Assembly (NCBI GenBank): GCA_934748015.1
Contig: CAKVHF010000003.1
Location: 77,743-141,742, forward strand
Length of the DNA: 64,000 nt
DNA from: an uncultured Clostridia bacterium
GTDB taxonomy: Bacteria > Bacillota > Clostridia > Christensenellales > UBA1242
Direction: 5' to 3'
Shown here: in pieces, positions 21,883 to 51,583 of the stretch
Numbering within the stretch: position 1 is the stretch's first letter
Layout: each line of letters opens with the position of its first letter
Position numbers and translations under genes: made by a program
Notes under the pieces: generated by a model
Seen by the model: only the letters and a program-made list of their open reading frames with translations
Told to the model about the DNA's origin: nothing
The model's database searches: none

Positions 21883-21941
21883 CAAAAAAAAACTAGTCGA
21901 CATTGATTATGCATAGATCAACGATCGACTAGTTTTTTTTT
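21883..21941. terminator. Bidirectional nested-hairpin terminator between convergent genes
   Basis: AACTAGTCGA (21891-21900) pairs with TCGACTAGTT (21925-21934), with an inner stem TTGAT/ATCAA. An A8 run lies on the left and a T9 run on the right. Confidence 0.8.
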
Positions 21942-21951
21942 ACAAATGTTT

Positions 21952-23391
21952 TTAACCAAACAATCCTTTGACAAAATCCAACAAAGGAAGTAATTTGTCA
22001 ATAAAATAATATCCCACTGCCATGCCTACTGTTGCTATAAAACTAATAATCAAAGTAACTCTACCCATTTTGCGTGGTTTAACAAAAATAAGTTGGCATA
22101 TTGCAAATATTATTGACAATAACCCTGCGCCAAGTGCACCCAAAATCACATACATTTGGTTGTTGGTTACATTAAGGAATCTATTGATGTATTCAAATAC
22201 AATATTAGGGTTGGCAATATCTTTCAGCAAATACATCTGGGCAACGACTACGCCTGTCGCAAGAACTGCAAGCGAAATAAATATTATTGACATTACGCCA
22301 GCAAACTTATTGTATTTCTCTTTATCTTTTTTCTTTTTCTTAGTATCATCTTGCTCTGCTACTGGATTGTCGTTATTAGCATTCAGCCCAATAACATCTT
22401 TGTCATCAATAACTATAGGTTTAGTATCGGTTGCCTTATTCTCGCCTGACTCACCCAGATTGGTGTATGGTACATCCTCTGCCTTAACACTTGCGTACTC
22501 ATCCTCTTTTGGCACTTCAATCTTCTCTGGAGTTATTGCACCCAGTGCTACACCACTAGGTTCTTCCTGTGGTTTCTCCTCTGCTTTTTGCTCTTCGGTA
22601 GCCACACTGGATGTATCTTCCGCCAAATTATCCTTAGGTTCTTCCACAGTTGGCTTAATAAGGTCATCTGCAGTGTTATCCACTGCGGTGTTATCTGTCG
22701 TATTATTGTCATCTTGGATGTCAGACTCCTTAATATAGCCCAAGTTAACATCGGTGTCTAGATTAATCTCATCAGATGTATCCTCGTTCTCGAATTCTGG
22801 AACGAAAAATCCATCATCTTGATCATCATTTTGCTCGGCACTTTCGCCCTGAATATCAGATTCAACTTCGGCACTTGTATCAACGGTAGTTTTATCTTCT
22901 GGCTCGTTATCTTTGGGTAATTCAAATGTTTCTGGACTCTCTTCTGGGGCAACTTCAGCCACATCATCGCTAGCATTATCTTCTTCTGCAATTGTCGCAT
23001 TTCCGCTAACAACCGTATTGTTTTGTTCCCAGTCCTCAGGGATAGCAAAATCATTGGCTCGTTCCTTCTCTTTAGCCGACTTTTCGTCCTCTTTAGCCTT
23101 CTCATAAAATGCGTTTAGGTCAAAATCTTCGGAAGAGTCATCCTCTTTGGCAAAAGTAATCTCCTTGGAGTACAGATCTGCAATCTCTTCGTCCTTGTTG
23201 GATACCTTATTAAATTTAGCAGGCTCTTCCTTGTCAACCATTTCTTCTCGTTTAGTCTTCAAAGCACTGGCAAGCGAAGAAATATTAGACATAGCACGTC
23301 TAAGTTCTGCATCTCTATCAACAATTGTACCACATACTCCACAGCGAGTACTATTCTTTGGGATCTCGCTACCACATACACTACATTTCAT
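21952..23391 (-). CDS. Zinc-ribbon protein with a ~330-aa acidic disordered region and C-terminal TM helices
   Basis: N-terminus MKCSVCGSEIPKNSTRCGVCG. A long D/E/T/N-rich low-complexity middle follows. Three hydrophobic helices lie at the C-terminus: FAGVMSIIFISLAVLATGVVVA, VILGALGAGLLSIIFAICQLIFV, VTLIISFIATVGMAVGYYFI. Confidence 0.55.
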   Translation of the reverse strand: MKCSVCGSEIPKNSTRCGVCGTIVDRDAELRRAMSNISSLASALKTKREEMVDKEEPAKFNKVSNKDEEIADLYSKEITFAKEDDSSEDFDLNAFYEKAKEDEKSAKEKERANDFAIPEDWEQNNTVVSGNATIAEEDNASDDVAEVAPEESPETFELPKDNEPEDKTTVDTSAEVESDIQGESAEQNDDQDDGFFVPEFENEDTSDEINLDTDVNLGYIKESDIQDDNNTTDNTAVDNTADDLIKPTVEEPKDNLAEDTSSVATEEQKAEEKPQEEPSGVALGAITPEKIEVPKEDEYASVKAEDVPYTNLGESGENKATDTKPIVIDDKDVIGLNANNDNPVAEQDDTKKKKKDKEKYNKFAGVMSIIFISLAVLATGVVVAQMYLLKDIANPNIVFEYINRFLNVTNNQMYVILGALGAGLLSIIFAICQLIFVKPRKMGRVTLIISFIATVGMAVGYYFIDKLLPLLDFVKGLFG

Positions 23392-24213: not shown

Positions 24214-24702
24214 TTATTTCAACTTGCCAGTGACATCCATGCCAGAATTAACATCATTCTTGAAATCTTCTAGAAAGTCAATGAAGTGTGTCAGATCCGC
24301 AAACTTACGATACACGCTAGCAAATCTAACATAAGCAACATCATCTAATATTTTTAATCTCTCCATAACCATTTCGCCCAACTGCTTAGAAGTGATCTCT
24401 TGGTCAAGATTGTTCTGGATATGTTTATATATATCGCTTACTACAATATCTATCTGCGCCATACTAATTGGTCTTTTCTCGCAAGCACGCAATATTCCCC
24501 TCTTTAATTTGTTAGAATCAAATGCTTGTCTTGTTCCATCACTCTTAACAACCAAAATAGGCATTGTCTCAATGGCCTCAAAAGTAGTAAATCTCTTGCC
24601 ACACTCTAAGCATTCTCTACGCCGTCTTATTGAATTACTTTCGTCATTATTCCTGCTATCTAGAACCTTGCTCTCGGCTTTACCACAAAAAGGACATTTC
24701 AT
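24214..24702 (-). CDS. nrdR: Transcriptional repressor NrdR
   Basis: MKCPFCG...RRRECLECGKRFTTFE is a zinc ribbon. An ATP-cone follows (VVKSDGTRQAFDSNKLKRGI). Confidence 0.92.
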   Translation of the reverse strand: MKCPFCGKAESKVLDSRNNDESNSIRRRRECLECGKRFTTFEAIETMPILVVKSDGTRQAFDSNKLKRGILRACEKRPISMAQIDIVVSDIYKHIQNNLDQEITSKQLGEMVMERLKILDDVAYVRFASVYRKFADLTHFIDFLEDFKNDVNSGMDVTGKLK

Positions 24703-24875
24703 CTCTAGTACCCACTCCTTATAGATATATTAACAACTAGTAAGTAAATTGTAACAAAATTTGGCAATTTTGTAAATGTATATAGCCTATATTTTTAACA
24801 AAATGCTAATTGGTGAAAGCAAGATTGTATTAGGCTTAGTACTTTTTGCTAACTTAATTGCATATATTATATAAA

Positions 24876-24935: not shown

Positions 24936-25271
24936 ATGGAGATATCTTTCTGCGAACTGCGTGCCAAAGAAGTTGTAAATGTATTCAATGGCAAAAAATT
25001 AGGAAATATTATTGATATGATTATTGACACTAGATGTGCCAGAGTCTTGGGCATCGTTGTGCCTAATTGTGATGCAAAGTTTACTATATTTAAGTCCTCT
25101 TCTGATGTATTTATCCCATACAACAATATTGTTAAGATTGGCAAGGATGTTATACTGGTTGATCTTAGTCAGATAAGCACATTATCCAATAACAAAGGCA
25201 AATCGGATAATATAGCGACTATTTCTGCCTCAACTGAAGGCAAACAAGCAAATGATCAGACGGATAACTAA
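24936..25271 (+). CDS. ylmC: YlmC/YmxH-family sporulation protein (PRC-barrel) with C-terminal extension
   Basis: MEISFCELRAKEVVNVFNGKKLGNIIDMIIDTRCARVLGIVVP...IPYNNIVKIGKDVILVDL. Confidence 0.8.
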   Translation: MEISFCELRAKEVVNVFNGKKLGNIIDMIIDTRCARVLGIVVPNCDAKFTIFKSSSDVFIPYNNIVKIGKDVILVDLSQISTLSNNKGKSDNIATISASTEGKQANDQTDN

Positions 25272-25284
25272 GACTATGCGGATA

Positions 25285-25402
25285 AGCAAAAAAAATATAC
25301 AATCTATGCTACAATTTGACAATAAGTCAAATTGCAGAGTTGCTAACATAAGTTAGCAACCGCCTTAGCTTAAGGCGACATAGATTGTATATTTTTTTTG
25401 CT
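25285..25402. repeat. Perfect nested palindrome: 23/24-bp terminal inverted repeats enclosing three perfect hairpins
   Basis: The arms are GCAAAAAAAATATACAATCTATG (25286-25308) and CATAGATTGTATATTTTTTTTGC (25379-25401). Inner hairpins lie at 25312-25334 (9 bp), 25339-25360 (9 bp) and 25361-25377 (7 bp). There are no mismatches. Confidence 0.9.
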
Positions 25403-26654
25403 AATTATTTTTAGTCACAAGCAGTCCACTAGGATTGATTGCAAAATTGATATTCCAGTAACTTATGCCTAGCAAATTATACTTTTCTACAATGTTTAAT
25501 TTTGCAAGCAAGCTTCTTACATCTTCAAACCACACAATATGTTTTGCACCATTATTATAGTATGTGAAATATGGCGATTGTGCCTTGCTATCAAACATTA
25601 TAAAACTGCCTTTGTTTCGTGCTAAATTCAATGCTTGCATATTACTTAGATACATTGCAGGAGTGCCACTAACATAAGGCAATGTCCAATCATATGCATA
25701 GTTGGATACACCCAGCAAAATCTTATCACTAGGGATATCGGTCACCGCATAAGAGATTACATTCTCTATCCTATTGGCAGGAGATATTGCCTGTGGTTCT
25801 CCATACAAGTATCCCCACTCGTATGTCATAATTATCACAATATCAGCAATCTCGCCTATCGTCTTATAGTCATGCGCTTCGTACAATAGCCCTACTTGAT
25901 TAGCACTCTCCTTAGGTGCAACTGCAACCGCCAATATATAACCGTTCTGTTTCAAGACTGTGCTTAACATTCTTAGGAAATTGATATAATTGTCTTTATC
26001 TTCAGGATATAAATATTCGAAATCTACATTTAGTCCATAATATCCTTTTTCGTTCATTACGCTAATTACATTTTGGATAAAATTAGCAGTGCTAGTGGGA
26101 TTGGTAAATAGCTGATGTGCAGTTTCGCTACTAAAGCCATTGCTATTGATATTTGTAACCACCATTAACGGTTTTATACCCCTATTTAGTGCAATATCTA
26201 TATATCTTTCGTCCATAACCTCTCTAAGCGACCCGTCAGGCATAACTTCGTAACTAAATATACTTAAATAATCTAGATATGGCAATGCCGAATTAAGACT
26301 TTCCGTACTTATGCCTGGCAACATATAAGCATTGACTACAACATCTCTTGGACTAATGGCATTGTATGGGATATTGATTATCTGATTGGGATATATTATT
26401 GTACCTGTGATATCTGGATTGACGGCCAAGATATCGTCTATTGTAACACCATATCTCCTGGCAATACGATATAAGCTATCCCCCCTTGCGACCGAATACC
26501 TAATGTAATCTTGCGGGATGACAATTGCTTGCCCCACCACCAATGTTTCGTTGGAATCAATATTATTTAGTTTTGCAATATCATCTACCGATACATTATA
26601 ACTTTTTGCAATATTGTACAAAGTATCACCACGTTCAATCTCGTAAATAAACAT
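25401..26654 (-). CDS. LysM-LysM-GH18 spore cortex/peptidoglycan hydrolase (YaaH/SleL-like)
   Basis: Two LysM repeats are present: YEIERGDTLYNIAKSYNVSVDDIAKLNNI and YSVARGDSLYRIARRYGVTIDDILAVNP. The GH18 catalytic region is YGLNVDFEYL. ATG 26654 follows AAAGGAG. The longer ORF-track start would run into the upstream terminator. Confidence 0.8.
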   Translation of the reverse strand: MFIYEIERGDTLYNIAKSYNVSVDDIAKLNNIDSNETLVVGQAIVIPQDYIRYSVARGDSLYRIARRYGVTIDDILAVNPDITGTIIYPNQIINIPYNAISPRDVVVNAYMLPGISTESLNSALPYLDYLSIFSYEVMPDGSLREVMDERYIDIALNRGIKPLMVVTNINSNGFSSETAHQLFTNPTSTANFIQNVISVMNEKGYYGLNVDFEYLYPEDKDNYINFLRMLSTVLKQNGYILAVAVAPKESANQVGLLYEAHDYKTIGEIADIVIIMTYEWGYLYGEPQAISPANRIENVISYAVTDIPSDKILLGVSNYAYDWTLPYVSGTPAMYLSNMQALNLARNKGSFIMFDSKAQSPYFTYYNNGAKHIVWFEDVRSLLAKLNIVEKYNLLGISYWNINFAINPSGLLVTKNN

Positions 26655-31343: not shown

Positions 31344-31380
31344 CAAAAAAATGAACCACTGAAATAGTGGTTCATTTTTC
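31344..31380. terminator. Bidirectional terminator (groEL / DUF975-like gene)
   Basis: ATGAACCACT (31351-31360) pairs with AGTGGTTCAT (31366-31375). It is flanked by an A-run and a T-run. Confidence 0.75.
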
Positions 31381-32381: not shown

Positions 32382-32422
32382 AAAAAATAGAGTAGAAAAT
32401 ATTTTCTACTCATATTTTTTTG
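32382..32422. terminator. Bidirectional terminator downstream of the giant gene
   Basis: The palindrome GAGTAGAAAAT/ATTTTCTACTC (32390-32411) is flanked by an A-run and a T-run. Confidence 0.6.
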
Positions 32423-32434
32423 TAGATCTCTATA

Positions 32435-35400
32435 CTATCTGCCATTAACTATAATTCCGCTCTGAACTATCATCTGTCGTCCAGTGTGATCGGATATAGA
32501 TATCACCATAGTTGTGTCGGCAAAGTGGTTAGCAAATGCACCTGTTGCATCAAATATAACAGAATTAAATCTAACTTCTATCTGATTGCCACTGATAGTG
32601 TTGCCGTCCTTATCCTTCTCAACAAATGTCACTGTACAAGTGTTAGTTTCTTCAATAACCTTGTACTCCACTGCATACAAGCCACCTTGATAAGTAACAT
32701 TAGTATTATTCTGGACAAATACTAAATAATTGGTCAGCCAAGTAGCAACATCACTGCCTGCAACATCTATTCCTGTAGTCTTGAACATATCAGAGTTGAC
32801 TACAACCCCTACACCGCTCCATGCTGTCTGAAGACTAGGAACGATATTGATAGTTACTGCTATTCCGCCAATTGTATCACTGGCATTGCTTGTATAAGCG
32901 TTGATATCTACCTTACGAGCAACATTGCCACTTGTGCCAGTAGTCATAATCTTGTATTGGAAGATATATATTTCAAAACTAGTCGAAAGCATATTGTTAT
33001 AATAGTCTCTCAAAGATAGTTGCTGATTGCCAATAAGCGTACCATACTTGACGCCATTGATCATAATATCTTGATCTTGATCACTTGTGTCGATAACCTT
33101 GGTGGTTGTTCCAGAAGTCTGATCTAACTGATCAGCTACAACACCATAACGCAAAATCTCTGTACCATTATTGATTGCCTGTTGTGGCAAAACAACGTCT
33201 GTAGTTAGACTGCTATTAGTTTCGTAGACAAGTTCCAGACTAGCATACTGCAATGACAAATAATCGGGCATATTGTATATACCATTAGCACTTAGGTCTA
33301 GAGAGATTGTCTCATACTTCTTAGTTTCATAATCATAACCATAAGTTTTGCCAGTCTTATCATTGTAGATAACATATCCTGCGATAGGCACTAAGAGTTC
33401 AACTGAATTAGTTGTTCTGCTATTGGATATTCCCAAAAATCCGTTGTCAATAGAATAACTAATAGGAAGAATAATTGATTTGTCAATAGCCTTTACACTA
33501 AGTTTGCCATCTGTGATATTGATCATAGAAGTACTGCCATATACTATATCACCCAGCTGGTTTCGGTTGCCATTGGTATCAACAAATTGCTTTCTTGTAA
33601 TATAAGACTTGTTATTAAATGCAAATTGATAATTGTAATTATCCATAATCTCAAACTTATCAAATTTACCAAACACAAAATTGCTATCAGCTGTGTATTC
33701 CAATACATCGGTTGCACTATTCTTGGTTAATACTTGTGTGCTTATTATATCAAATAGATTAGCACCATTCTCCAACAACTCCAGAATATTAGATGATTGT
33801 TGATATTGATAATAAGTATTGTTAGATATCAATTTGTTTGATTTTACAACCTTAACGATAGGCTGAATAGTTACCTGATAATTCATATTAGCAACATCTT
33901 CAACCGGGCTGAAATTATAGCCACTATCACTTATGTCTAATCTGAAATTAATAACTAGAGTTGTAAATATATCACTATGGATATGCAACTTTTGACCTTT
34001 ATGTTTTTTATTAACATCAACAAAAACATCAACAAATTTAAACAATTTTTCTTTTTCATTATTGGCAATAACTGTATCCTTACTTAACGACTGAGTGTTG
34101 CCATTTAGATCAATATAAGAAGCACTTGTGCATTCAATGCCATAATTAGTTTTGCCATTAATACTAAATAGTTTTGACAAGTCATAGATTATATAATTGC
34201 CGTCTATCTCAAATGATGTTGCGGGCTCTAATTCGGTGTTGTTATTAGCAATTGTAATCTTTTTGTTTGCTGTATTGTATATCACATTGGCATTGTTAAC
34301 ATAATTGTAGAATTTTGAATTGCTTGTTAATGTAATAGTCTTAGTTACACTCGGTTCTATTGTTAATTCTATTGTCAGTTTTTTGCCTGCCAATTCAGAA
34401 ATAACTGTTACTGTTCTTTGCTCAAAGCAATCATATACAAACAACTTATTACTGGTACCTACCATTATATCAGTCTTAACTTCATTTAGCTTAAAGTATG
34501 CATAGTTGTGTTCTTTGATTGTAAATTTGATTTTTGAGTTTAGTTCTGTTTCTTTGTTGCTATTATAATAAGCTTTGAACTTATCACTGAAATCAAATTC
34601 TCTTGTACCACCTTGTATAGTATATCTAGCAAGATTAGGATTGCCAGTAACTGGGTCTTTTAATACAAATGTTGGACTTTGAAACTTAGCATCTGTAGTA
34701 AAGTAATAATCAAAGATCTTAGAATTGTCACCATTAAAGGTTAATTTCACCTTAAATAGTATTCCATAATGACCTTGTTGATCCGCAAGTGGTAGATTTC
34801 CGCTTTCGTCTAGTTTTACACGATATCCGTCTTCAATCTCCATCCCATTAGTAAAGTACTTAGCATAATCAGTTATGATTGTCGCTATCAAAATATCGGT
34901 AGTATTGTTCTCATCTGTTTTGATATACCTTAGTTCAACAACACCATCTTTGGAATTGGTTATATATCTATATTCTTTCTCTAACCTAGATGCATTCAAT
35001 GATGTTGCAAATTGATCATTAGAGAACAAGCACAACTCTTCATTGCCATCTTTGTTATAATATCTTATTTGATAATTATCTTCTTCAAGCTTATACATTG
35101 CAGTTACATCAACATATACATTGGCCTCTGCACATGAAGTATGCTCTGTTGTAAATGAAACATTGGATAGATTGTATATTTCATTGTAAGTTTTTGCTGT
35201 TGGATTAACATTACCTGCCATTCTAGTTTTCAACTCGGTATACAATGTGTCAATATTTTTCCAATCTCCATCATAGGCAAAAATGTATCTACATATCATT
35301 TCGTCAATATAATTGCTAGAAACCATCGAAATATCTAAATTAGCATTGTCGGCTACAAATTTGAATACATTGCTATCTACTTCCAATCCGCTAGTAATAT

Positions 35401-38400
35401 TGGTTGAGAAATTTTTATACAAACTTTTTGTAAATTTGCTTGATTCTGAAAAGTCACATAGATACAACATCTTGTATTTGCCAAATAGCGGAGTCCCGGC
35501 TGTCACCCATAACCTATCATCATTTGAGTTAATTTTGCCTATGTAGTCGAAATTGTTAATGACTTCTGTATCTTCATCTTTTACATCACTTACATACAAT
35601 TCACCATCAACATTGTACATTTTGCCATAACCAGTTATTGCAATATCGTTAACCTCTAGTCTTACTGCATCGTTAGGCATATACAGACTGTTAGCTAATT
35701 CCGAATTGCTTGCAATAATATATGGGACTTGGTCGCCCTGTGGGATAGTCTCTGCTACAAGTGTAATGATTATTGGATGATATACTGTATTGTTATATTG
35801 TTCGCCATCCAACTTGTCTTTGTTAACACTAGTTACCTTAACACAATCGGTTAATGTAGTGTTGTTAAGTCTAATCTCGAAATTGAACCCTGTAAGCGAA
35901 GAATATTGTATAGCATCGTTAAGTGCTAGCAGACTATTAGTAAGTTTCTCATGCATGCCATCTGCAGTTAAATTATCTAAGTCTTTGATATCATAAGGTA
36001 GCACTGTCAATTTGTTGTATGTCTGACCCTTTAACAGTTTCAAAGCTCCAAAAATGTTAAGATTGTCATTACGTTGAATTAACGATTTTGCTGTATATTT
36101 AGTATCTTTTCCATTGTTTGTGATAGTTATATCACTCTCAATCTGTGTGTAATAATACAATTTCTCCAACACACTTTTTACCTTGAACATATTATTGCTT
36201 TGGATAGTTATATCATTTAGAGCAATATAGTTAACAATTGTTGCCTCGCTACCATTAACATTGATTTTGTCAAAAACTATACCATCTGTATTGGTTGCAT
36301 TATATTCATTAAGCGAAGAATTATACTCTTTGTAAGCTGGTTTGTTGTTATTAGCATCCCCTTCGACTACATGACCTCCATCCTTACCAAGATATAGCCT
36401 TACACCCTCTCTATTGATTGGGTTATCATCCTTATCTGTCAAGACATAACAACCGAACAAAACAATATCGTTAGTACTTGCATTGACTGCGTCAATAGTG
36501 TATACCCGTCTGGTTAACTCTCTAGAATTGATCTGTGCAATATCCTCATAAAATAGTTCGTATGCATATACAACATTTGTGTTCTGTGTTTGTGTCACAA
36601 AAGATGTACTCATTTTGCCTTCATTGATAATTGATTGCAGTATCTTACCATCTAAGTTAGTAAAAGTACATATTCTATCAGGTTTGATATCCAATACACT
36701 GTATAATTTCTTGGCTTCTTCAGTGCTAAAACTAGACTTTGTCATAACAGAATTGTTGCCATAATTGGCAATAGAACCATTGTCGTTGCCACTACCTAGA
36801 TAAGCAAACACCTTGAAGTTTCGGAAAGTAACATTGGAGTAGTTGCCGTAGGTAGAAACTGACTTAGTATTAGGTGTATAACCTTTTCCCATTAGTTCGC
36901 TCTTAATAGTCTCGTCATTGCTAACATATATTGTGTTAGAACTATCTTGATCTACACCGAAATTGATATTATTGTTCTTTGCTAAACCATCTTCACTAGT
37001 ATCGCTATCTTCACTGATTTTGACTTTAACAAAGTCGTAGAATGTCTTGTGTCCATCTTCGTCATCTACACCCAGAGTAAACATCAAATATATCTGGAAC
37101 TCTCCTGACTTGCTAGGGACTAATTTCTCAAAAGTCCAAGTATAGTTGCCATTAATCTTCTGATCAGATTTAGTAACTGTTAGATACTGATTATTTGTAC
37201 CAAACTTGCCCTTGTAGTCATCTTTAGTTTTGTAGTTTTCAATGTCTGCCTTGTAATTATAATCTGTATTAGCATTTACAACAAAATTTTTGTCTACAAT
37301 TTTGCTTTTGCCAGAGTTATCAAATACTAGCACATCAATTGTAATTTGGTTAATAAGATCTAATTTTGCTTCGTTACTTATTGCACCACCACCGCTTAAG
37401 TTAGTGCCTTGGATATTAATGCCAAACTTGCTTGCAATATAATTAGCACCCGTTGATGCATTCTCTACATAATATGTTTCGGTTCTATCAAGTTCTCCTG
37501 TCATAGAGTCTCTTTTTACTAGACTTAGATCAACCTCGGAGCCTGTTACTGTAAAACTACGAACCTTAACATCGGAGATATAGAACTCGATAGAAGTACT
37601 TGCAAACACGTAGTCTAGGCTAGTCTTAATCTTCTTAAGAATTTCACTATCTGTAGATGACAACATAACATGCCCATTGGTTGAGTTATCGTCAAAGAAT
37701 TTAAGAGCAGTAGAGTTACCCTTAGCAAAATAATCCTTGTAATATTTATCTAGAAATTCATTATATCTAACAAGTAAACCACTAATATCTGACTCTGATA
37801 GACTGATATTGCCAAGAACATACTCTTCTAATTGGCTAAATCCATTGCTCTTATATTCGCTTTGGATCTCATAAGATCTGTGCACCTTAGATATAACCTT
37901 CAAGACATTCTCATTGGTTCGGTCTGGATAAAAAGTTAACTTATACCAATCCTTAGTCTTATCATAAGTACAACTAACAACCTTAAGTGCTGTATCGTCT
38001 ATTGTAAGAGGAACAATAACGCCGTTCTCTTCGTAATAGAAATATGTCTCCTTATTCTCAGTCCTAGACCACTGGTTGATATCAAATATATTAGACTTAT
38101 TGCTACGAAGGTAGAAATCGGTGCTTGCTTGGTTCTTAGCAATAATACGTTGGTTAAGAGAAGAAGAACTGGATATGTATCTTAGGTCGGACGCAAAAAA
38201 TAAATCATTGTTCTCAACTGGCACATCTACTGTCAATTGCAACTTACATGGACTAATAAGATTGCTTTCGCTATTCTTATCCGCACTAACGAACTCGATA
38301 GTTACATTGCCACCTATATTTCTGCCTGTTAGAGTCTTACGCAATTTGATAGTAAATTCCTGCCCGCCAGTCACAGTGCTAGGGATATCAATAATATTGG

Positions 38401-38653
38401 TGTCACCACTAACAATCGTCTTCAATTTAGTCTCGGTTGCATCGGTCGGCAAATAATTGATAGTGACATTGACATCATTCTCAACAATCAACTTCCGCTC
38501 AGTCTCTGTCTCGCTATCAAAGAACACGTTGGTCATGCCAATCTTGGTCTGATTAAATCCACCGATGATCGCATACACGCCTACTGCTAGTCCCATTACA
38601 CCTACCAGTACACCCAATACTATTCCAAATATTTTTAAGAACCTCTTAAACAT
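32435..38653 (-). CDS. Giant N-terminally anchored surface-type protein (~2072 aa)
   Basis: A single uninterrupted 6.2-kb ORF. ATG 38653 follows GGGAGAG; alternative starts lie at 38668 and 38692. The N-terminal helix is FLKIFGIVLGVLVGVMGLAVGVYAII. The rest is Asn/Thr/Tyr/Ser/Ile-rich and predicted beta-rich. There is no LPXTG motif and no recognisable enzymatic motif. Confidence 0.7.
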   Translation of the reverse strand: MFKRFLKIFGIVLGVLVGVMGLAVGVYAIIGGFNQTKIGMTNVFFDSETETERKLIVENDVNVTINYLPTDATETKLKTIVSGDTNIIDIPSTVTGGQEFTIKLRKTLTGRNIGGNVTIEFVSADKNSESNLISPCKLQLTVDVPVENNDLFFASDLRYISSSSSLNQRIIAKNQASTDFYLRSNKSNIFDINQWSRTENKETYFYYEENGVIVPLTIDDTALKVVSCTYDKTKDWYKLTFYPDRTNENVLKVISKVHRSYEIQSEYKSNGFSQLEEYVLGNISLSESDISGLLVRYNEFLDKYYKDYFAKGNSTALKFFDDNSTNGHVMLSSTDSEILKKIKTSLDYVFASTSIEFYISDVKVRSFTVTGSEVDLSLVKRDSMTGELDRTETYYVENASTGANYIASKFGINIQGTNLSGGGAISNEAKLDLINQITIDVLVFDNSGKSKIVDKNFVVNANTDYNYKADIENYKTKDDYKGKFGTNNQYLTVTKSDQKINGNYTWTFEKLVPSKSGEFQIYLMFTLGVDDEDGHKTFYDFVKVKISEDSDTSEDGLAKNNNINFGVDQDSSNTIYVSNDETIKSELMGKGYTPNTKSVSTYGNYSNVTFRNFKVFAYLGSGNDNGSIANYGNNSVMTKSSFSTEEAKKLYSVLDIKPDRICTFTNLDGKILQSIINEGKMSTSFVTQTQNTNVVYAYELFYEDIAQINSRELTRRVYTIDAVNASTNDIVLFGCYVLTDKDDNPINREGVRLYLGKDGGHVVEGDANNNKPAYKEYNSSLNEYNATNTDGIVFDKINVNGSEATIVNYIALNDITIQSNNMFKVKSVLEKLYYYTQIESDITITNNGKDTKYTAKSLIQRNDNLNIFGALKLLKGQTYNKLTVLPYDIKDLDNLTADGMHEKLTNSLLALNDAIQYSSLTGFNFEIRLNNTTLTDCVKVTSVNKDKLDGEQYNNTVYHPIIITLVAETIPQGDQVPYIIASNSELANSLYMPNDAVRLEVNDIAITGYGKMYNVDGELYVSDVKDEDTEVINNFDYIGKINSNDDRLWVTAGTPLFGKYKMLYLCDFSESSKFTKSLYKNFSTNITSGLEVDSNVFKFVADNANLDISMVSSNYIDEMICRYIFAYDGDWKNIDTLYTELKTRMAGNVNPTAKTYNEIYNLSNVSFTTEHTSCAEANVYVDVTAMYKLEEDNYQIRYYNKDGNEELCLFSNDQFATSLNASRLEKEYRYITNSKDGVVELRYIKTDENNTTDILIATIITDYAKYFTNGMEIEDGYRVKLDESGNLPLADQQGHYGILFKVKLTFNGDNSKIFDYYFTTDAKFQSPTFVLKDPVTGNPNLARYTIQGGTREFDFSDKFKAYYNSNKETELNSKIKFTIKEHNYAYFKLNEVKTDIMVGTSNKLFVYDCFEQRTVTVISELAGKKLTIELTIEPSVTKTITLTSNSKFYNYVNNANVIYNTANKKITIANNNTELEPATSFEIDGNYIIYDLSKLFSINGKTNYGIECTSASYIDLNGNTQSLSKDTVIANNEKEKLFKFVDVFVDVNKKHKGQKLHIHSDIFTTLVINFRLDISDSGYNFSPVEDVANMNYQVTIQPIVKVVKSNKLISNNTYYQYQQSSNILELLENGANLFDIISTQVLTKNSATDVLEYTADSNFVFGKFDKFEIMDNYNYQFAFNNKSYITRKQFVDTNGNRNQLGDIVYGSTSMINITDGKLSVKAIDKSIILPISYSIDNGFLGISNSRTTNSVELLVPIAGYVIYNDKTGKTYGYDYETKKYETISLDLSANGIYNMPDYLSLQYASLELVYETNSSLTTDVVLPQQAINNGTEILRYGVVADQLDQTSGTTTKVIDTSDQDQDIMINGVKYGTLIGNQQLSLRDYYNNMLSTSFEIYIFQYKIMTTGTSGNVARKVDINAYTSNASDTIGGIAVTINIVPSLQTAWSGVGVVVNSDMFKTTGIDVAGSDVATWLTNYLVFVQNNTNVTYQGGLYAVEYKVIEETNTCTVTFVEKDKDGNTISGNQIEVRFNSVIFDATGAFANHFADTTMVISISDHTGRQMIVQSGIIVNGR

Positions 38654-38859
38654 ATTTTTCTCTCCCATTGTTTTCATTCTAGATAAATACAAAATAATTA
38701 CTTAATTGTCTATACTTTAGCCTAAGTCGCACAAACAAAAATATCTACACATAGTATTTGTGTATATATTATTTTTATTTATTATATATAATAGTGTCTT
38801 TTTTTGTCAAACAAATAGTGTGCAAACAAAAAATAAGCAAAAGGCTTATCACCTCTTGC

Positions 38860-51506: not shown

Positions 51507-51540
51507 AAATACTTTTCAAGCCAATTTGTGATAGACGACA

Positions 51541-51583
51541 AAAAAACTGCTAGAGTGTGTAAGGCTCTCTAGCAGTTTTTTTT
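51541..51583. terminator. Bidirectional terminator
   Basis: CTGCTAGAG (51547-51555) pairs with CTCTAGCAG (51567-51575). It is flanked by A6 and T8 runs. Confidence 0.8.

What the first reader, a model, noticed from the sequence alone, without database searches (positions are those of the whole stretch)
25285..25402. A ~118-bp perfectly nested palindrome forming a cloverleaf-like four-way junction between ylmC and the GH18 gene
The sequences 25286-25308 (GCAAAAAAAATATACAATCTATG) and 25379-25401 (CATAGATTGTATATTTTTTTTGC) form a perfect 23-bp inverted repeat, or 24 bp counting A25285/T25402. The 70 nt between them form three more back-to-back perfect hairpins of unrelated sequence. These are CAATTTGAC-aataa-GTCAAATTG (25312-25334), GTTGCTAAC-ataa-GTTAGCAAC (25339-25360) and CGCCTTA-gct-TAAGGCG (25361-25377). 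That gives 49 Watson-Crick pairs with no mismatch or wobble in ~118 nt. The element begins 14 nt after the ylmC stop, and its right arm overlaps the TAG stop (25401-25403) of the convergent GH18 gene. Other convergent gaps in this window use ordinary single or doubly nested hairpins, so plain bidirectional termination does not need this much structure. Four explanations are possible. It may be an unusually elaborate bidirectional terminator, since the A8/U8 tracts lie in the outer stem. It may be a stable structured or tRNA-like RNA. It may be a cruciform or recombination site. Or it may be a MITE/REP-like insertion with 23-bp terminal inverted repeats that landed in a terminator.
Basis: seen in the sequence. 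Interest (0 to 1): 0.7.

Follow-up and report, generated by a model that had tools for sequence, protein, structure and literature searches.

The report
Branched two-way transcription terminator
The 118-base nested palindrome is real, and it most likely stops transcription from both of two facing genes; it is an ordinary two-way terminator whose loop has grown three extra hairpins in this one gut Clostridia species, which is unusual in shape but not a new kind of element.

Summary
Positions 25285-25402 form 49 perfect Watson-Crick pairs arranged as a four-way junction. It is the most stable 120-nt fold in the window on both strands (z about -12 and -13).

The element lies exactly where a two-way (bidirectional) intrinsic terminator is expected, between the stop codons of the convergent ylmC and LysM-GH18 genes. 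Its outer stem follows the design of the window's other convergent-gene terminators: A8, a 13-bp stem, then T8.

Six related species (62-66% GH18 identity) carry a simple A-tract/hairpin/T-tract terminator beside the GH18 stop. In the three where ylmC is still the neighbour, that hairpin is the whole spacer. The 70-nt three-hairpin interior is therefore an elaboration specific to this lineage.

All 18 same-species contigs (9 haplotypes) carry the element and keep the fold. Stem positions vary less than flanks or loops, and one pair shows G-C / G·U / A-U states.

I found no second copy in the window, 185,579 species genomes, JGI metagenomes, IMG/VR, phages or plasmids. Nothing matched in Rfam or a tRNA scan.

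Verdict: a branched bidirectional terminator, a new variant of a known kind. A low-copy mobile insertion is not fully excluded, because the rest of the source genome could not be scanned. Interest is modest.

The parts
25285..25402 (.). The whole nested palindrome (four-way junction). Proposed branched bidirectional intrinsic terminator shared by ylmC (+) and the GH18 gene (-).
   Evidence: Present in all 18 same-species sequences.
25288..25295 (.). A8 tract. On the - strand it encodes the U8 tract that follows the terminator stem of the GH18 transcript. On the + strand RNA it can pair with the U8.
   Evidence: The same A-tract/T-tract design is seen at 21884-21941, 31347-31379 and 51540-51582. 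Its length varies between A8 and A7 among strains.
25296..25308 (.). Left arm of the 13-bp basal terminator stem (TATACAATCTATG).
   Evidence: Invariant in 9 haplotypes.
25309..25337 (.). Inner hairpin H1. A 9-bp perfect core (25312-25320 / 25326-25334, loop AATAA) that extends to 12 bp on the - strand.
   Evidence: The pair 25311/25335 is A·C (G·U on the - strand) in the window, A-T in the L019 group and G-C in L022/L043.
25339..25360 (.). Inner hairpin H2 (GTTGCTAAC-ATAA-GTTAGCAAC), 9 bp.
   Evidence: The only change is C25360T in L048, which turns the terminal pair into G·U.
25361..25377 (.). Inner hairpin H3 (CGCCTTA-GCT-TAAGGCG), 7 bp.
   Evidence: The loop changes from GCT to GTTT in the L019 group while the stem is unchanged.
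25379..25391 (.). Right arm of the 13-bp basal terminator stem (CATAGATTGTATA).
   Evidence: In the nascent + strand RNA ending at 25391 this stem forms and, with the junction, adds -14.1 kcal/mol immediately before the U8.
25392..25399 (.). T8 tract. It is the U-tract of the ylmC (+) terminator and the template of the A-tract in the GH18 transcript.
   Evidence: T8 or T7 among strains.
24936..25271 (+). ylmC/ymxH-family sporulation gene (PRC barrel). Its transcript would end at the element.
   Evidence: TIGR02888, 74 bits.
25401..26654 (-). LysM-LysM-GH18 gene (YaaH/SleL-like spore peptidoglycan hydrolase). Its TAG stop codon (25401-25403) overlaps the outermost pairs of the element.

Best explanation
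**What it is.** The element is the shared, bidirectional Rho-independent terminator of the convergent ylmC (+) and LysM-GH18 (-) genes.

**How it would work (inferred).**
- On either strand, RNA polymerase first transcribes an A8 run and the left 13-nt arm.
- It then transcribes three self-contained hairpins, which fold as they emerge and keep the 70-nt interior compact.
- Next comes the right 13-nt arm, which closes a 13-bp basal stem directly in front of a U8 tract.
- That is the hairpin-plus-U-tract signal that releases the transcript, or at least pauses the polymerase so that converging polymerases stop each other.
- Each mRNA would end in the full four-way junction, with A8 pairing to U8. 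This should also protect the 3' end from exonucleases.

**Why the pairing is perfect.** Both strands must fold, so only Watson-Crick pairs are tolerated: a G·U pair on one strand is an A·C mismatch on the other. Template-switch correction of inverted repeats may help keep the arms identical.

**Origin.** The three-hairpin interior is an elaboration of an ancestral simple terminator, specific to this lineage. How it arose is unknown.

**Shown versus inferred.**
- Shown: anatomy, position, conservation, and the comparison with relatives.
- Inferred: termination itself, co-transcriptional folding, and 3'-end protection.
For: **Position.**
- The element fills the 129-nt spacer between the two stop codons. 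It is the only hairpin followed by a T-run there.

**Design matches the window's other terminators.**
- Its outer part is A8 + 13-bp stem ... stem + T8.
- The other convergent junctions have the same layout: 21884-21941 is A9 + 8 bp, perfect, with a small nested hairpin; 51540-51582 is A7 + 9 bp; 31347-31379 is A5 + 9 bp.
- Kingsford et al. 2007 describe this A-tail/hairpin/T-tail layout as typical of bidirectional terminators (PMC1852404).

**Relatives.**
- In relatives with 62-66% identical GH18, gene order is conserved.
- L004, L010 and L041 keep ylmC next to GH18, and the spacer holds one simple two-way terminator: L004 A7-GTGAACTT-ggtt-AAGTTCGC-T7, and likewise in L010 and L041.
- L007, L011 and L042 have an extra gene inserted, with a simple A/T-flanked hairpin just after the GH18 stop.

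**Folding of the nascent RNA.**
- RNA truncated just before the U-tract still folds into the junction on both strands.
- The basal stem plus junction contributes -14.1 kcal/mol.

**Conservation within the species.**
- The element is present in all 18 same-species sequences and all 9 haplotypes. Locus divergence is 1.9-2.7%, and every haplotype keeps the four-way junction on both strands.
- Variable substitution sites: stems 2/98, flanks 12/102 (Fisher p=0.010), unpaired positions of the element 5/20 (p=0.0015).
- Both stem changes are transitions at helix ends that give G·U on one strand.
- The pair 25311/25335 shows G-C, G·U (- strand) and A-U states in different strains. This is the switch pattern reported for terminator stems in Bacillus cereus, where terminators shared by convergent genes are also more conserved (PMC5381666).

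**No sign of another identity.**
- No Rfam family or tRNA matches.
- No other copy was found anywhere searched.
Against: - No transcript 3' ends are available, so termination is not demonstrated.
- Canonical intrinsic terminators have a short unbranched hairpin with a 3-8 nt loop. A 13-bp AU-rich basal stem (3 G/C pairs) closing a 70-nt three-branch interior is atypical and could fold too slowly to be efficient. The simple consensus scan did not call it, because its loop limit is 8 nt.
- The hypothesis does not explain why the interior consists of three perfect hairpins, or where the 70 nt came from. No donor sequence was found.
- Covariation support rests on a single pair and is not significant on its own: 407 of 500 shuffles do as well.
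- Low stem variability could also come from concerted evolution of the arms by template switching, without selection for termination (PMC5941160).
Confidence: 0.72

Rival explanations
1. A small non-autonomous mobile element landed at the gene junction and now supplies or replaces the terminator. It would be MITE-, REP- or SPRITE-like, with 23-24-bp terminal inverted repeats.
For: - The 118-nt unit, or at least its 70-nt interior, is absent from every relative examined. It was therefore gained in this lineage.
- The arms resemble terminal inverted repeats, and the unit GC...GC is flanked by TAA on each side.
- The GH18-ylmC junction is prone to insertion in relatives: extra genes sit there in L007/L008, L011 and L042.
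- Terminator-like mobile repeats exist, such as SPRITE of S. pneumoniae, and such repeats can insert into one another (review PMC10969869).
Against: - The element is single-copy in the 64-kb window, even allowing 3 mismatches for the arm and for each hairpin. Short-word BLAST found nothing longer than 13 nt.
- The 20-mer arm gave only single-arm hits in unrelated taxa, consistent with chance. These were 6 hits in 185,579 species genomes, 12 in JGI metagenomes and 3 in IMG/VR. None had an inverted partner arranged as here.
- H1 and H2 are absent from IMG/VR. There was no phage or plasmid match.
- No empty site was seen among 18 contigs and 9 haplotypes.
- The 'terminal repeat' is built like the genome's native terminators (A-run + stem).
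- A 3-bp TAA match is weak evidence in AT-rich DNA, and it overlaps the GH18 stop codon.
- No transposase lies nearby.
Confidence: 0.12
2. A stable structured RNA whose function goes beyond termination. Examples would be a 3'-UTR-derived small RNA or a protein-binding four-way-junction RNA, made from one or both strands.
For: - The fold is extremely stable and well defined on both strands.
- Stems are conserved while loops and linkers vary.
- Most non-Watson-Crick positions are G·U on the - strand, and the - strand fold is 4-9 kcal/mol more stable in every haplotype.
Against: - No Rfam or tRNA/tmRNA match.
- The element is restricted to one species. Relatives manage with a simple hairpin.
- Loops are not conserved: the H3 loop changes from GCT to GTTT.
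- There is no convincing dedicated promoter. The promoter-like matches inside the element equal chance expectation for the region.
- Perfect Watson-Crick symmetry is what two-strand use predicts. It is not typical of a one-strand functional RNA.
Confidence: 0.08
3. A DNA-level element: a cruciform, a recombination or replication site, or an array of three palindromic operator sites, analogous to folded single-strand sites such as integron attC or hairpinned replication origins.
For: - All 49 pairs are Watson-Crick, so both DNA strands can fold equally well.
- Each inner hairpin is a distinct perfect palindrome of the kind that dimeric proteins bind.
Against: - The locus is a syntenic housekeeping and sporulation neighbourhood (nrdR, ylmC, GH18, rluD, lspA). 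It has no recombinase, integrase, relaxase or replication gene.
- None of the palindromes recurs elsewhere in the window. A regulator's operator would normally be found near promoters, not between two stop codons.
- Bidirectional RNA use explains the perfect symmetry equally well.
Confidence: 0.04

Closest known systems
Bidirectional Rho-independent terminators of convergent genes: a hairpin flanked by an A-tail and a T-tail (Kingsford et al. 2007, PMC1852404). Their evolution is described in Safina et al. 2017, PMC5381666.
   Same: - It lies between two convergent stop codons.
- An A8 precedes the stem and a T8 follows it.
- Pairing is exclusively Watson-Crick, so both strands fold.
- Stems are more conserved than loops.
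- There is an AU/GU/GC switch at a helix end.
- Orthologous sites in relatives hold standard examples.
   Different: - The hairpin loop is replaced by a 70-nt interior made of three further perfect hairpins. The result is a four-way junction of 118 nt and about -62 to -66 kcal/mol.
- Other terminators in the window are 33-58 nt and -16 to -25 kcal/mol.
- Full-text searches turned up no description of a branched intrinsic terminator, but those searches are not exhaustive.
Collision-assisted bidirectional terminators of E. coli (Ju et al. 2019, cited; bioRxiv 10.1101/2022.10.23.513370).
   Same: A structured element in the overlap of convergent transcription units could pause polymerases arriving from either side.
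   Different: Those elements are described as not resembling intrinsic terminators. This one has a canonical U8 tract directly after a stem on both strands.
SPRITE, BOX and RUP of Streptococcus pneumoniae, and MITEs in general (review PMC10969869).
   Same: - Small size.
- Terminal inverted repeats.
- Stable RNA fold.
- Terminator-like appearance.
- Such repeats can nest within one another.
   Different: - Those families are multi-copy and dispersed.
- Here only one locus was found in every collection searched, and it is fixed in all strains seen.
Perfect short inverted repeats kept perfect by template switching (Lavi et al. 2018, PMC5941160).
   Same: The arms are perfectly identical over 7-24 bp. 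This mechanism could create such arms and keep them homogeneous.
   Different: That work concerns single inverted repeats. It does not describe a nest of four repeats forming one junction.

Membership tests
Bidirectional intrinsic (Rho-independent) terminator | Lies between the 3' ends of two convergent genes. | tested here: met
   The ylmC stop codon ends at 25271 and the GH18 stop codon is at 25401-25403. The element spans 25285-25402.
Bidirectional intrinsic (Rho-independent) terminator | On each strand, a stem is followed directly by a U-rich tract. On the DNA this appears as an A-tract before the stem and a T-tract after it. | tested here: met
   A8 (25288-25295), a 13-bp stem, then T8 (25392-25399). 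The nascent-RNA folds end in that stem on both strands.
Bidirectional intrinsic (Rho-independent) terminator | A compact, unbranched hairpin with a short loop (about 3-8 nt). | tested here: not met
   The 'loop' is 70 nt and folds into three hairpins. The consensus terminator scan does not call it. I therefore file it as a variant, not a standard member.
Bidirectional intrinsic (Rho-independent) terminator | Pairing is maintained on both strands, so Watson-Crick pairs are favoured and stems are more conserved than loops. | tested here: met
   49 of 49 core pairs are Watson-Crick. Variable sites are 2/98 in stems against 5/20 in unpaired positions (p=0.0015) and 12/102 in flanks (p=0.010).
Bidirectional intrinsic (Rho-independent) terminator | Transcripts actually end at the U-tracts. 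| not testable with these tools
   No transcriptome data are available for this uncultured organism.
MITE / REP / SPRITE-like dispersed repeat | Terminal inverted repeats. | tested here: met
   A 23-24-nt perfect inverted repeat, or 27 nt with one mismatch. It is also explained by the terminator stem plus the A and T tracts.
MITE / REP / SPRITE-like dispersed repeat | Several dispersed copies in the genome or in related genomes. | tested here: not met
   One copy in 64 kb with up to 3 mismatches allowed. There was no paired-arm hit in species genomes, metagenomes, viral contigs, phages or plasmids. Caveat: the rest of the source genome could not be scanned, and exact 20-mer matching misses diverged copies.
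MITE / REP / SPRITE-like dispersed repeat | Target-site duplication, and presence/absence polymorphism (empty sites). | tested here: inconclusive
   TAA flanks both ends. That is only 3 bp in AT-rich DNA and overlaps a stop codon. No empty site was seen among 18 same-species contigs. The nearest other species are too distant (62-66% protein identity) to align the spacer.
Known RNA families (Rfam 15) / tRNA-like elements | Match to a curated covariance model, or a tRNA/tmRNA detected by ARAGORN. | tested here: not met
   Only tRNA-Asn at 15096-15170 passes in the window. At the element the best scores are 23 bits or less, against gathering scores of 53-211.
Folded single-strand DNA recombination or replication sites (integron attC, hairpinned origins) | Association with an integrase, recombinase or replication gene, and imperfect pairing with specific extrahelical bases. 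| tested here: not met
   The neighbours are nrdR, ylmC, GH18, rluD and lspA, in conserved synteny. Pairing is perfect, with no extrahelical bases.

The most novel reading that the evidence does not exclude
The 70-nt interior, or the whole 118-nt unit, could be the first seen member of a family of very small palindromic insertion modules. These would colonise the loops of terminator hairpins in uncultured gut Clostridia, nest inside each other, and be retained because they keep or strengthen two-way termination and 3'-end protection. A related possibility is that the four-way junction is an RNA scaffold bound by a specific protein at the ends of two sporulation-gene mRNAs.
Probability: 0.1. 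Interest if true: 0.55.

Novelty: new variant of a known kind. Interest (0 to 1): 0.3.

Why it matters
- **For annotation.** If the reading is right, intrinsic terminators can tolerate a large branched interior, or even exploit one, as long as the basal stem abuts the U-tract. Terminator predictors cap the loop at a few nucleotides, so they miss such sites. The simple scan used here missed this one.
- **For evolution.** It is a clean natural example of how a terminator read on both strands is held to pure Watson-Crick pairing. It also shows a simple hairpin being elaborated within one lineage.
- **For synthetic biology.** A 118-nt four-way junction of about -62 to -66 kcal/mol might serve as a strong two-way insulator, but that would need testing.
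- **Overall.** This is a curiosity of form rather than a new mechanism.

Tried and rejected
- **Rfam and ARAGORN.** I ran Rfam at gathering thresholds and with permissive E-values, plus ARAGORN. Nothing matched, so I rejected a tRNA-like or known-RNA identity.
- **Other copies in the window.** I searched for the arm, H1, H2 and H3 with up to 3 mismatches and ran short-word BLAST. Only the element itself turned up.
- **Exact 20-mer arm in public collections.**
  - GTDB species genomes gave 6 hits, JGI metagenomes 12 and IMG/VR 3.
  - All were single-arm hits in unrelated taxa. None had an inverted partner in the arrangement seen here.
  - The source species itself was not hit in the genome collection. 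Either its representative lacks or masks this stretch, or it is not included.
- **H1 and H2 in IMG/VR.** No hits.
- **The whole unit against phages and plasmids by blastn.** No match.
- **A donor for the 70-nt interior.** I looked in the relatives' extra genes and spacers and in the window. Nothing was found.
- **The second long-range inverted repeat (2105-2289).** I checked it as a possible sister element. It lies inside a coding region and folds no better than shuffles (z -1.6), so I rejected it.
- **Covariation test on five representative haplotype sequences.** Only one informative pair, not significant.
- **Literature.** Searches for branched or cloverleaf intrinsic terminators found nothing relevant.
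- **Promoters.** The promoter-like hexamers inside the element equal chance expectation, so I did not pursue them.

Full report

Yes.

- The repeat finder reports the outer arms as 25282-25308 / 25379-25405: 27 nt, 96% complementary, 70 nt apart, with a perfect 23-24-nt core. It also reports the 9-bp hairpins at 25312-25334 and 25339-25360. The 7-bp hairpin at 25361-25377 shows in the folds.
- Folding as RNA gives the same four-way junction as both minimum-energy and centroid structure on both strands: -62.1 kcal/mol (+) and -66.1 kcal/mol (-). The z-scores are -12.2 and -13.2, and none of 200 dinucleotide shuffles fold as well.
- In a sliding 120-nt scan of the whole window, it is the most stable segment on both strands. 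It scores -52/-56 kcal/mol against a mean of -18/-21 (sd 5.8), ahead of the tRNA-Asn region.
- On the - strand, H1 extends to 12 bp through a G·U pair at 25311/25335.
- The flanking genes are as stated. The upstream gene is a YlmC/YmxH-family protein (TIGR02888, 74 bits). The convergent gene encodes a LysM-LysM-GH18 protein whose TAG stop occupies 25401-25403.
- It is not an assembly artefact. The same unit is found in 17 independent metagenome contigs of the same species.

**2. Context in the window.**

The genome is AT-rich (about 33-40% G+C), and its convergent gene junctions follow a consistent pattern. Each carries a perfect palindrome made of an A-run, a stem, a loop, the complementary stem and a T-run:

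- 21884-21941: A9 + 8 bp, with a small imperfect nested hairpin.
- 31347-31379: A5 + 9 bp.
- 51540-51582: A7 + 9 bp.
- 9904-9947: a less perfect example.

This is the classic layout of a terminator that works on both strands (Kingsford et al. 2007, PMC1852404).

The element under study has exactly that outer layout: A8 (25288-25295), a 13-bp stem (25296-25308 / 25379-25391), then T8 (25392-25399). It is the only hairpin-plus-T-run in the 129-nt spacer. What sets it apart is the 70-nt interior, where the other sites have 3-24 nt.

**3. Relatives.**

The GH18 protein has no relatives between 100% and 66% identity in a 5.8-billion-protein collection, so the species is isolated. I fetched loci for six related GH18 proteins at 62-66% identity.

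- All keep the gene order lspA-rluD-GH18 facing ylmC-nrdR.
- Where the two genes are still adjacent, the spacer is 14-51 nt and holds one simple two-way terminator:
  - L004: AAAAAAA-GTGAACTT-ggtt-AAGTTCGC-TTTTTTT.
  - L010: A7-GGCTCTACT-...-AGTAGAGTC-TTTTATTT.
  - L041: AAATAAGACTCTACT-tattc-AGTAGAGTCTTTTATTT.
- In L007/L008, L011 and L042 an extra gene has been inserted between the two: an LRR protein in L007/L008, and an unknown 379-381-aa protein in L011 and L042. Each new junction again has simple A/T-flanked hairpins.

So the site is an ancestral terminator position, and the junction is prone to insertion. The three-hairpin interior is specific to the window's lineage.

**4. Variation within the species.**

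There are 18 sequences (the window plus 17 contigs) falling into nine haplotypes. They differ from the window by 1.9-2.7% across the locus.

- All carry the element. There is no empty site.
- All nine haplotypes fold into the four-way junction on both strands.
- Changes inside the element:
  - A8 to A7 and T8 to T7. Most haplotypes have both changes; two have only the T-tract shortened.
  - G25400A, the third pair from the outside.
  - C25360T, the terminal pair of H2.
  - The H3 loop changes from GCT to GTTT.
  - Changes at 25309, 25311 and 25335, at the base of H1.
- Counting sites with substitutions:
  - Stems: 2 of 98.
  - Flanks: 12 of 102 (Fisher p=0.010).
  - Unpaired positions of the element: 5 of 20 (p=0.0015).
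- Both stem substitutions are transitions at helix ends that give a G·U pair on one strand.
- The pair 25311/25335 is G-C in L022/L043, A·C in the window (G·U on the - strand) and A-T in the L019 group. This is the AU-GU-GC route documented for terminator stems in Bacillus cereus, where terminators shared by convergent genes are also more conserved (PMC5381666).

Caveats: this is one informative pair. The formal covariation test on five representative haplotype sequences is not significant, with 407 of 500 shuffles doing as well. Low stem variability could also come from template-switch homogenisation of inverted-repeat arms (PMC5941160).

**5. Is it repeated or mobile?**

- There is no second copy of the arm or of any inner hairpin in the window with up to 3 mismatches. 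Short-word BLAST found nothing longer than 13 nt.
- The 20-nt arm (A7 + 13-nt stem arm, which matches all known haplotypes) gave 6 hits in one genome per 185,579 species, 12 in JGI metagenomes and 3 in IMG/VR. Inspection showed single arms in unrelated taxa, often around start codons, with no partner arm arranged as here.
- H1 and H2 are absent from IMG/VR. Phage and plasmid collections give no match to the whole unit.
- An important limit: the genome scan did not hit the source species at all. Its representative either lacks or masks this stretch, or it is not in the collection. A low-copy family is therefore not excluded.

**6. Other identities.**

- Rfam finds only the tRNA-Asn in the window. 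At permissive thresholds the hits at the element are weak and spurious, mostly plant microRNA precursor models (plus U12 and rliE), at 23 bits or less against gathering scores of 53-211. ARAGORN finds nothing there.
- The neighbourhood has no recombinase, integrase, transposase or replication gene.
- The promoter-like hexamers inside the element are no more frequent than in shuffled sequence.

**7. Most likely mechanism.**

I conclude that this is the bidirectional intrinsic terminator of ylmC and the GH18 gene, in a branched form.

- On each strand the polymerase transcribes the A8 and the left arm.
- It then transcribes three hairpins that can each fold on their own: -7.5 to -14.6 kcal/mol, or -31.4 together. 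This leaves the left arm free and brings the two arms close together.
- It then transcribes the right arm, which closes a 13-bp stem (adding -14.1 kcal/mol with the junction) directly in front of U8.
- That is the hairpin-plus-U-tract geometry needed for intrinsic termination. If the stem is slow to form, the structure could still pause polymerases and let converging polymerases block each other, as proposed for E. coli bidirectional terminators (bioRxiv 10.1101/2022.10.23.513370).
- After release, A8 pairs with U8, and each mRNA ends in a junction of about -62 to -66 kcal/mol that should resist 3' exonucleases.
- The absence of any G·U pair in the 49 core pairs follows from use on both strands, since G·U on one strand is A·C on the other (PMC1852404).
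- What is shown: anatomy, position, design shared with other terminators, simple counterparts in relatives, and conservation of the stems.
- What is inferred: termination, folding order, stabilisation, and the origin of the interior, which remains unexplained.

**8. Rivals.**

- A mobile terminator-like insertion (compare SPRITE) explains the lineage-specific gain and the long arms. It has no support from copy number, empty sites or a transposase. I give it about 0.12.
- A functional structured RNA beyond termination: about 0.08.
- A DNA-level site: about 0.04.

The last two have no positive evidence.

**9. Novelty and score.**

Bidirectional terminators are well known. A four-way-junction version is, as far as my full-text searches show, not described. 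It also fails one defining feature of the family, the compact unbranched hairpin. I therefore rate it a new variant of a known kind. It is of modest interest (0.3), mainly for terminator prediction and as an example of how a two-strand RNA signal evolves.

Noticed in passing
L007 4255-6625, L008 2071-4648, L011 4261-5695, L042 2758-4161: In three related species the GH18-ylmC junction has acquired an extra gene. It is an LRR_5 protein of 640-709 aa in L007/L008 and an unknown 379-381-aa protein in L011 and L042. This convergent junction therefore looks like a recurrent insertion site in the clade.
   Followed up: partly
window 21884-21941: Another perfect bidirectional terminator (A9-CTAGTCGA ... 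TCGACTAG-T9, 17-nt arms). Its 24-nt interior folds into a small imperfect nested hairpin. It is a milder version of the same nesting (-23/-25 kcal/mol).
   Followed up: partly
window about 24776-24874 (+); L001 2841-2939: A 32-codon ORF is called as a gene just upstream of ylmC in the metagenome assemblies. It has no Pfam hit, is conserved in position among strains, and is not called in L025 and L048.
   Followed up: no
window 21952-23391 (-): A 479-aa, very acidic protein with an N-terminal CxxC...CxxC zinc-ribbon-like motif and C-terminal membrane segments. It has no NCBIfam match. In relatives the corresponding position holds a protein of 514-525 aa that runs off the fetched locus and has no Pfam hit on record.
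   Followed up: no
window 24214-24702 (-) versus L002, L003, L024, L025, L048: The nrdR gene is called as 162 aa in some strains and 184 aa in others, so the upstream start codon differs between haplotypes.
   Followed up: no
window 32435-38692 (-): A very large ORF of 2085 aa, preceded by a 24-nt near-palindrome at 32382-32419. I did not examine it.
   Followed up: no
window 15060-15089, next to tRNA-Asn at 15096-15170 (-): A 30-nt near-perfect palindrome (AACCTCCTGAAGCAATTGCTTCAAGAGGTT) lies directly beside the tRNA-Asn gene. Together they form the second most stable 120-nt fold in the window.
   Followed up: no
L037 about 2285-2450 on the reverse strand (metagenome contig JACCDH010649220.1): A chance hit to the arm 20-mer lies in a contig with two copies, about 140 nt apart, of a TATAAAAAA-TATACAATC...GATTGTATC palindromic motif. 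It is unrelated to the element but may be a local repeat in that organism.
   Followed up: no
Genome-contig scan: The 20-mer arm, which matches all nine known haplotypes, did not hit the source species in the collection of one genome per species. Yet NCBI assemblies with contigs up to 1.08 Mb carry the adjacent gene. The representative may lack or mask this stretch.
   Followed up: no
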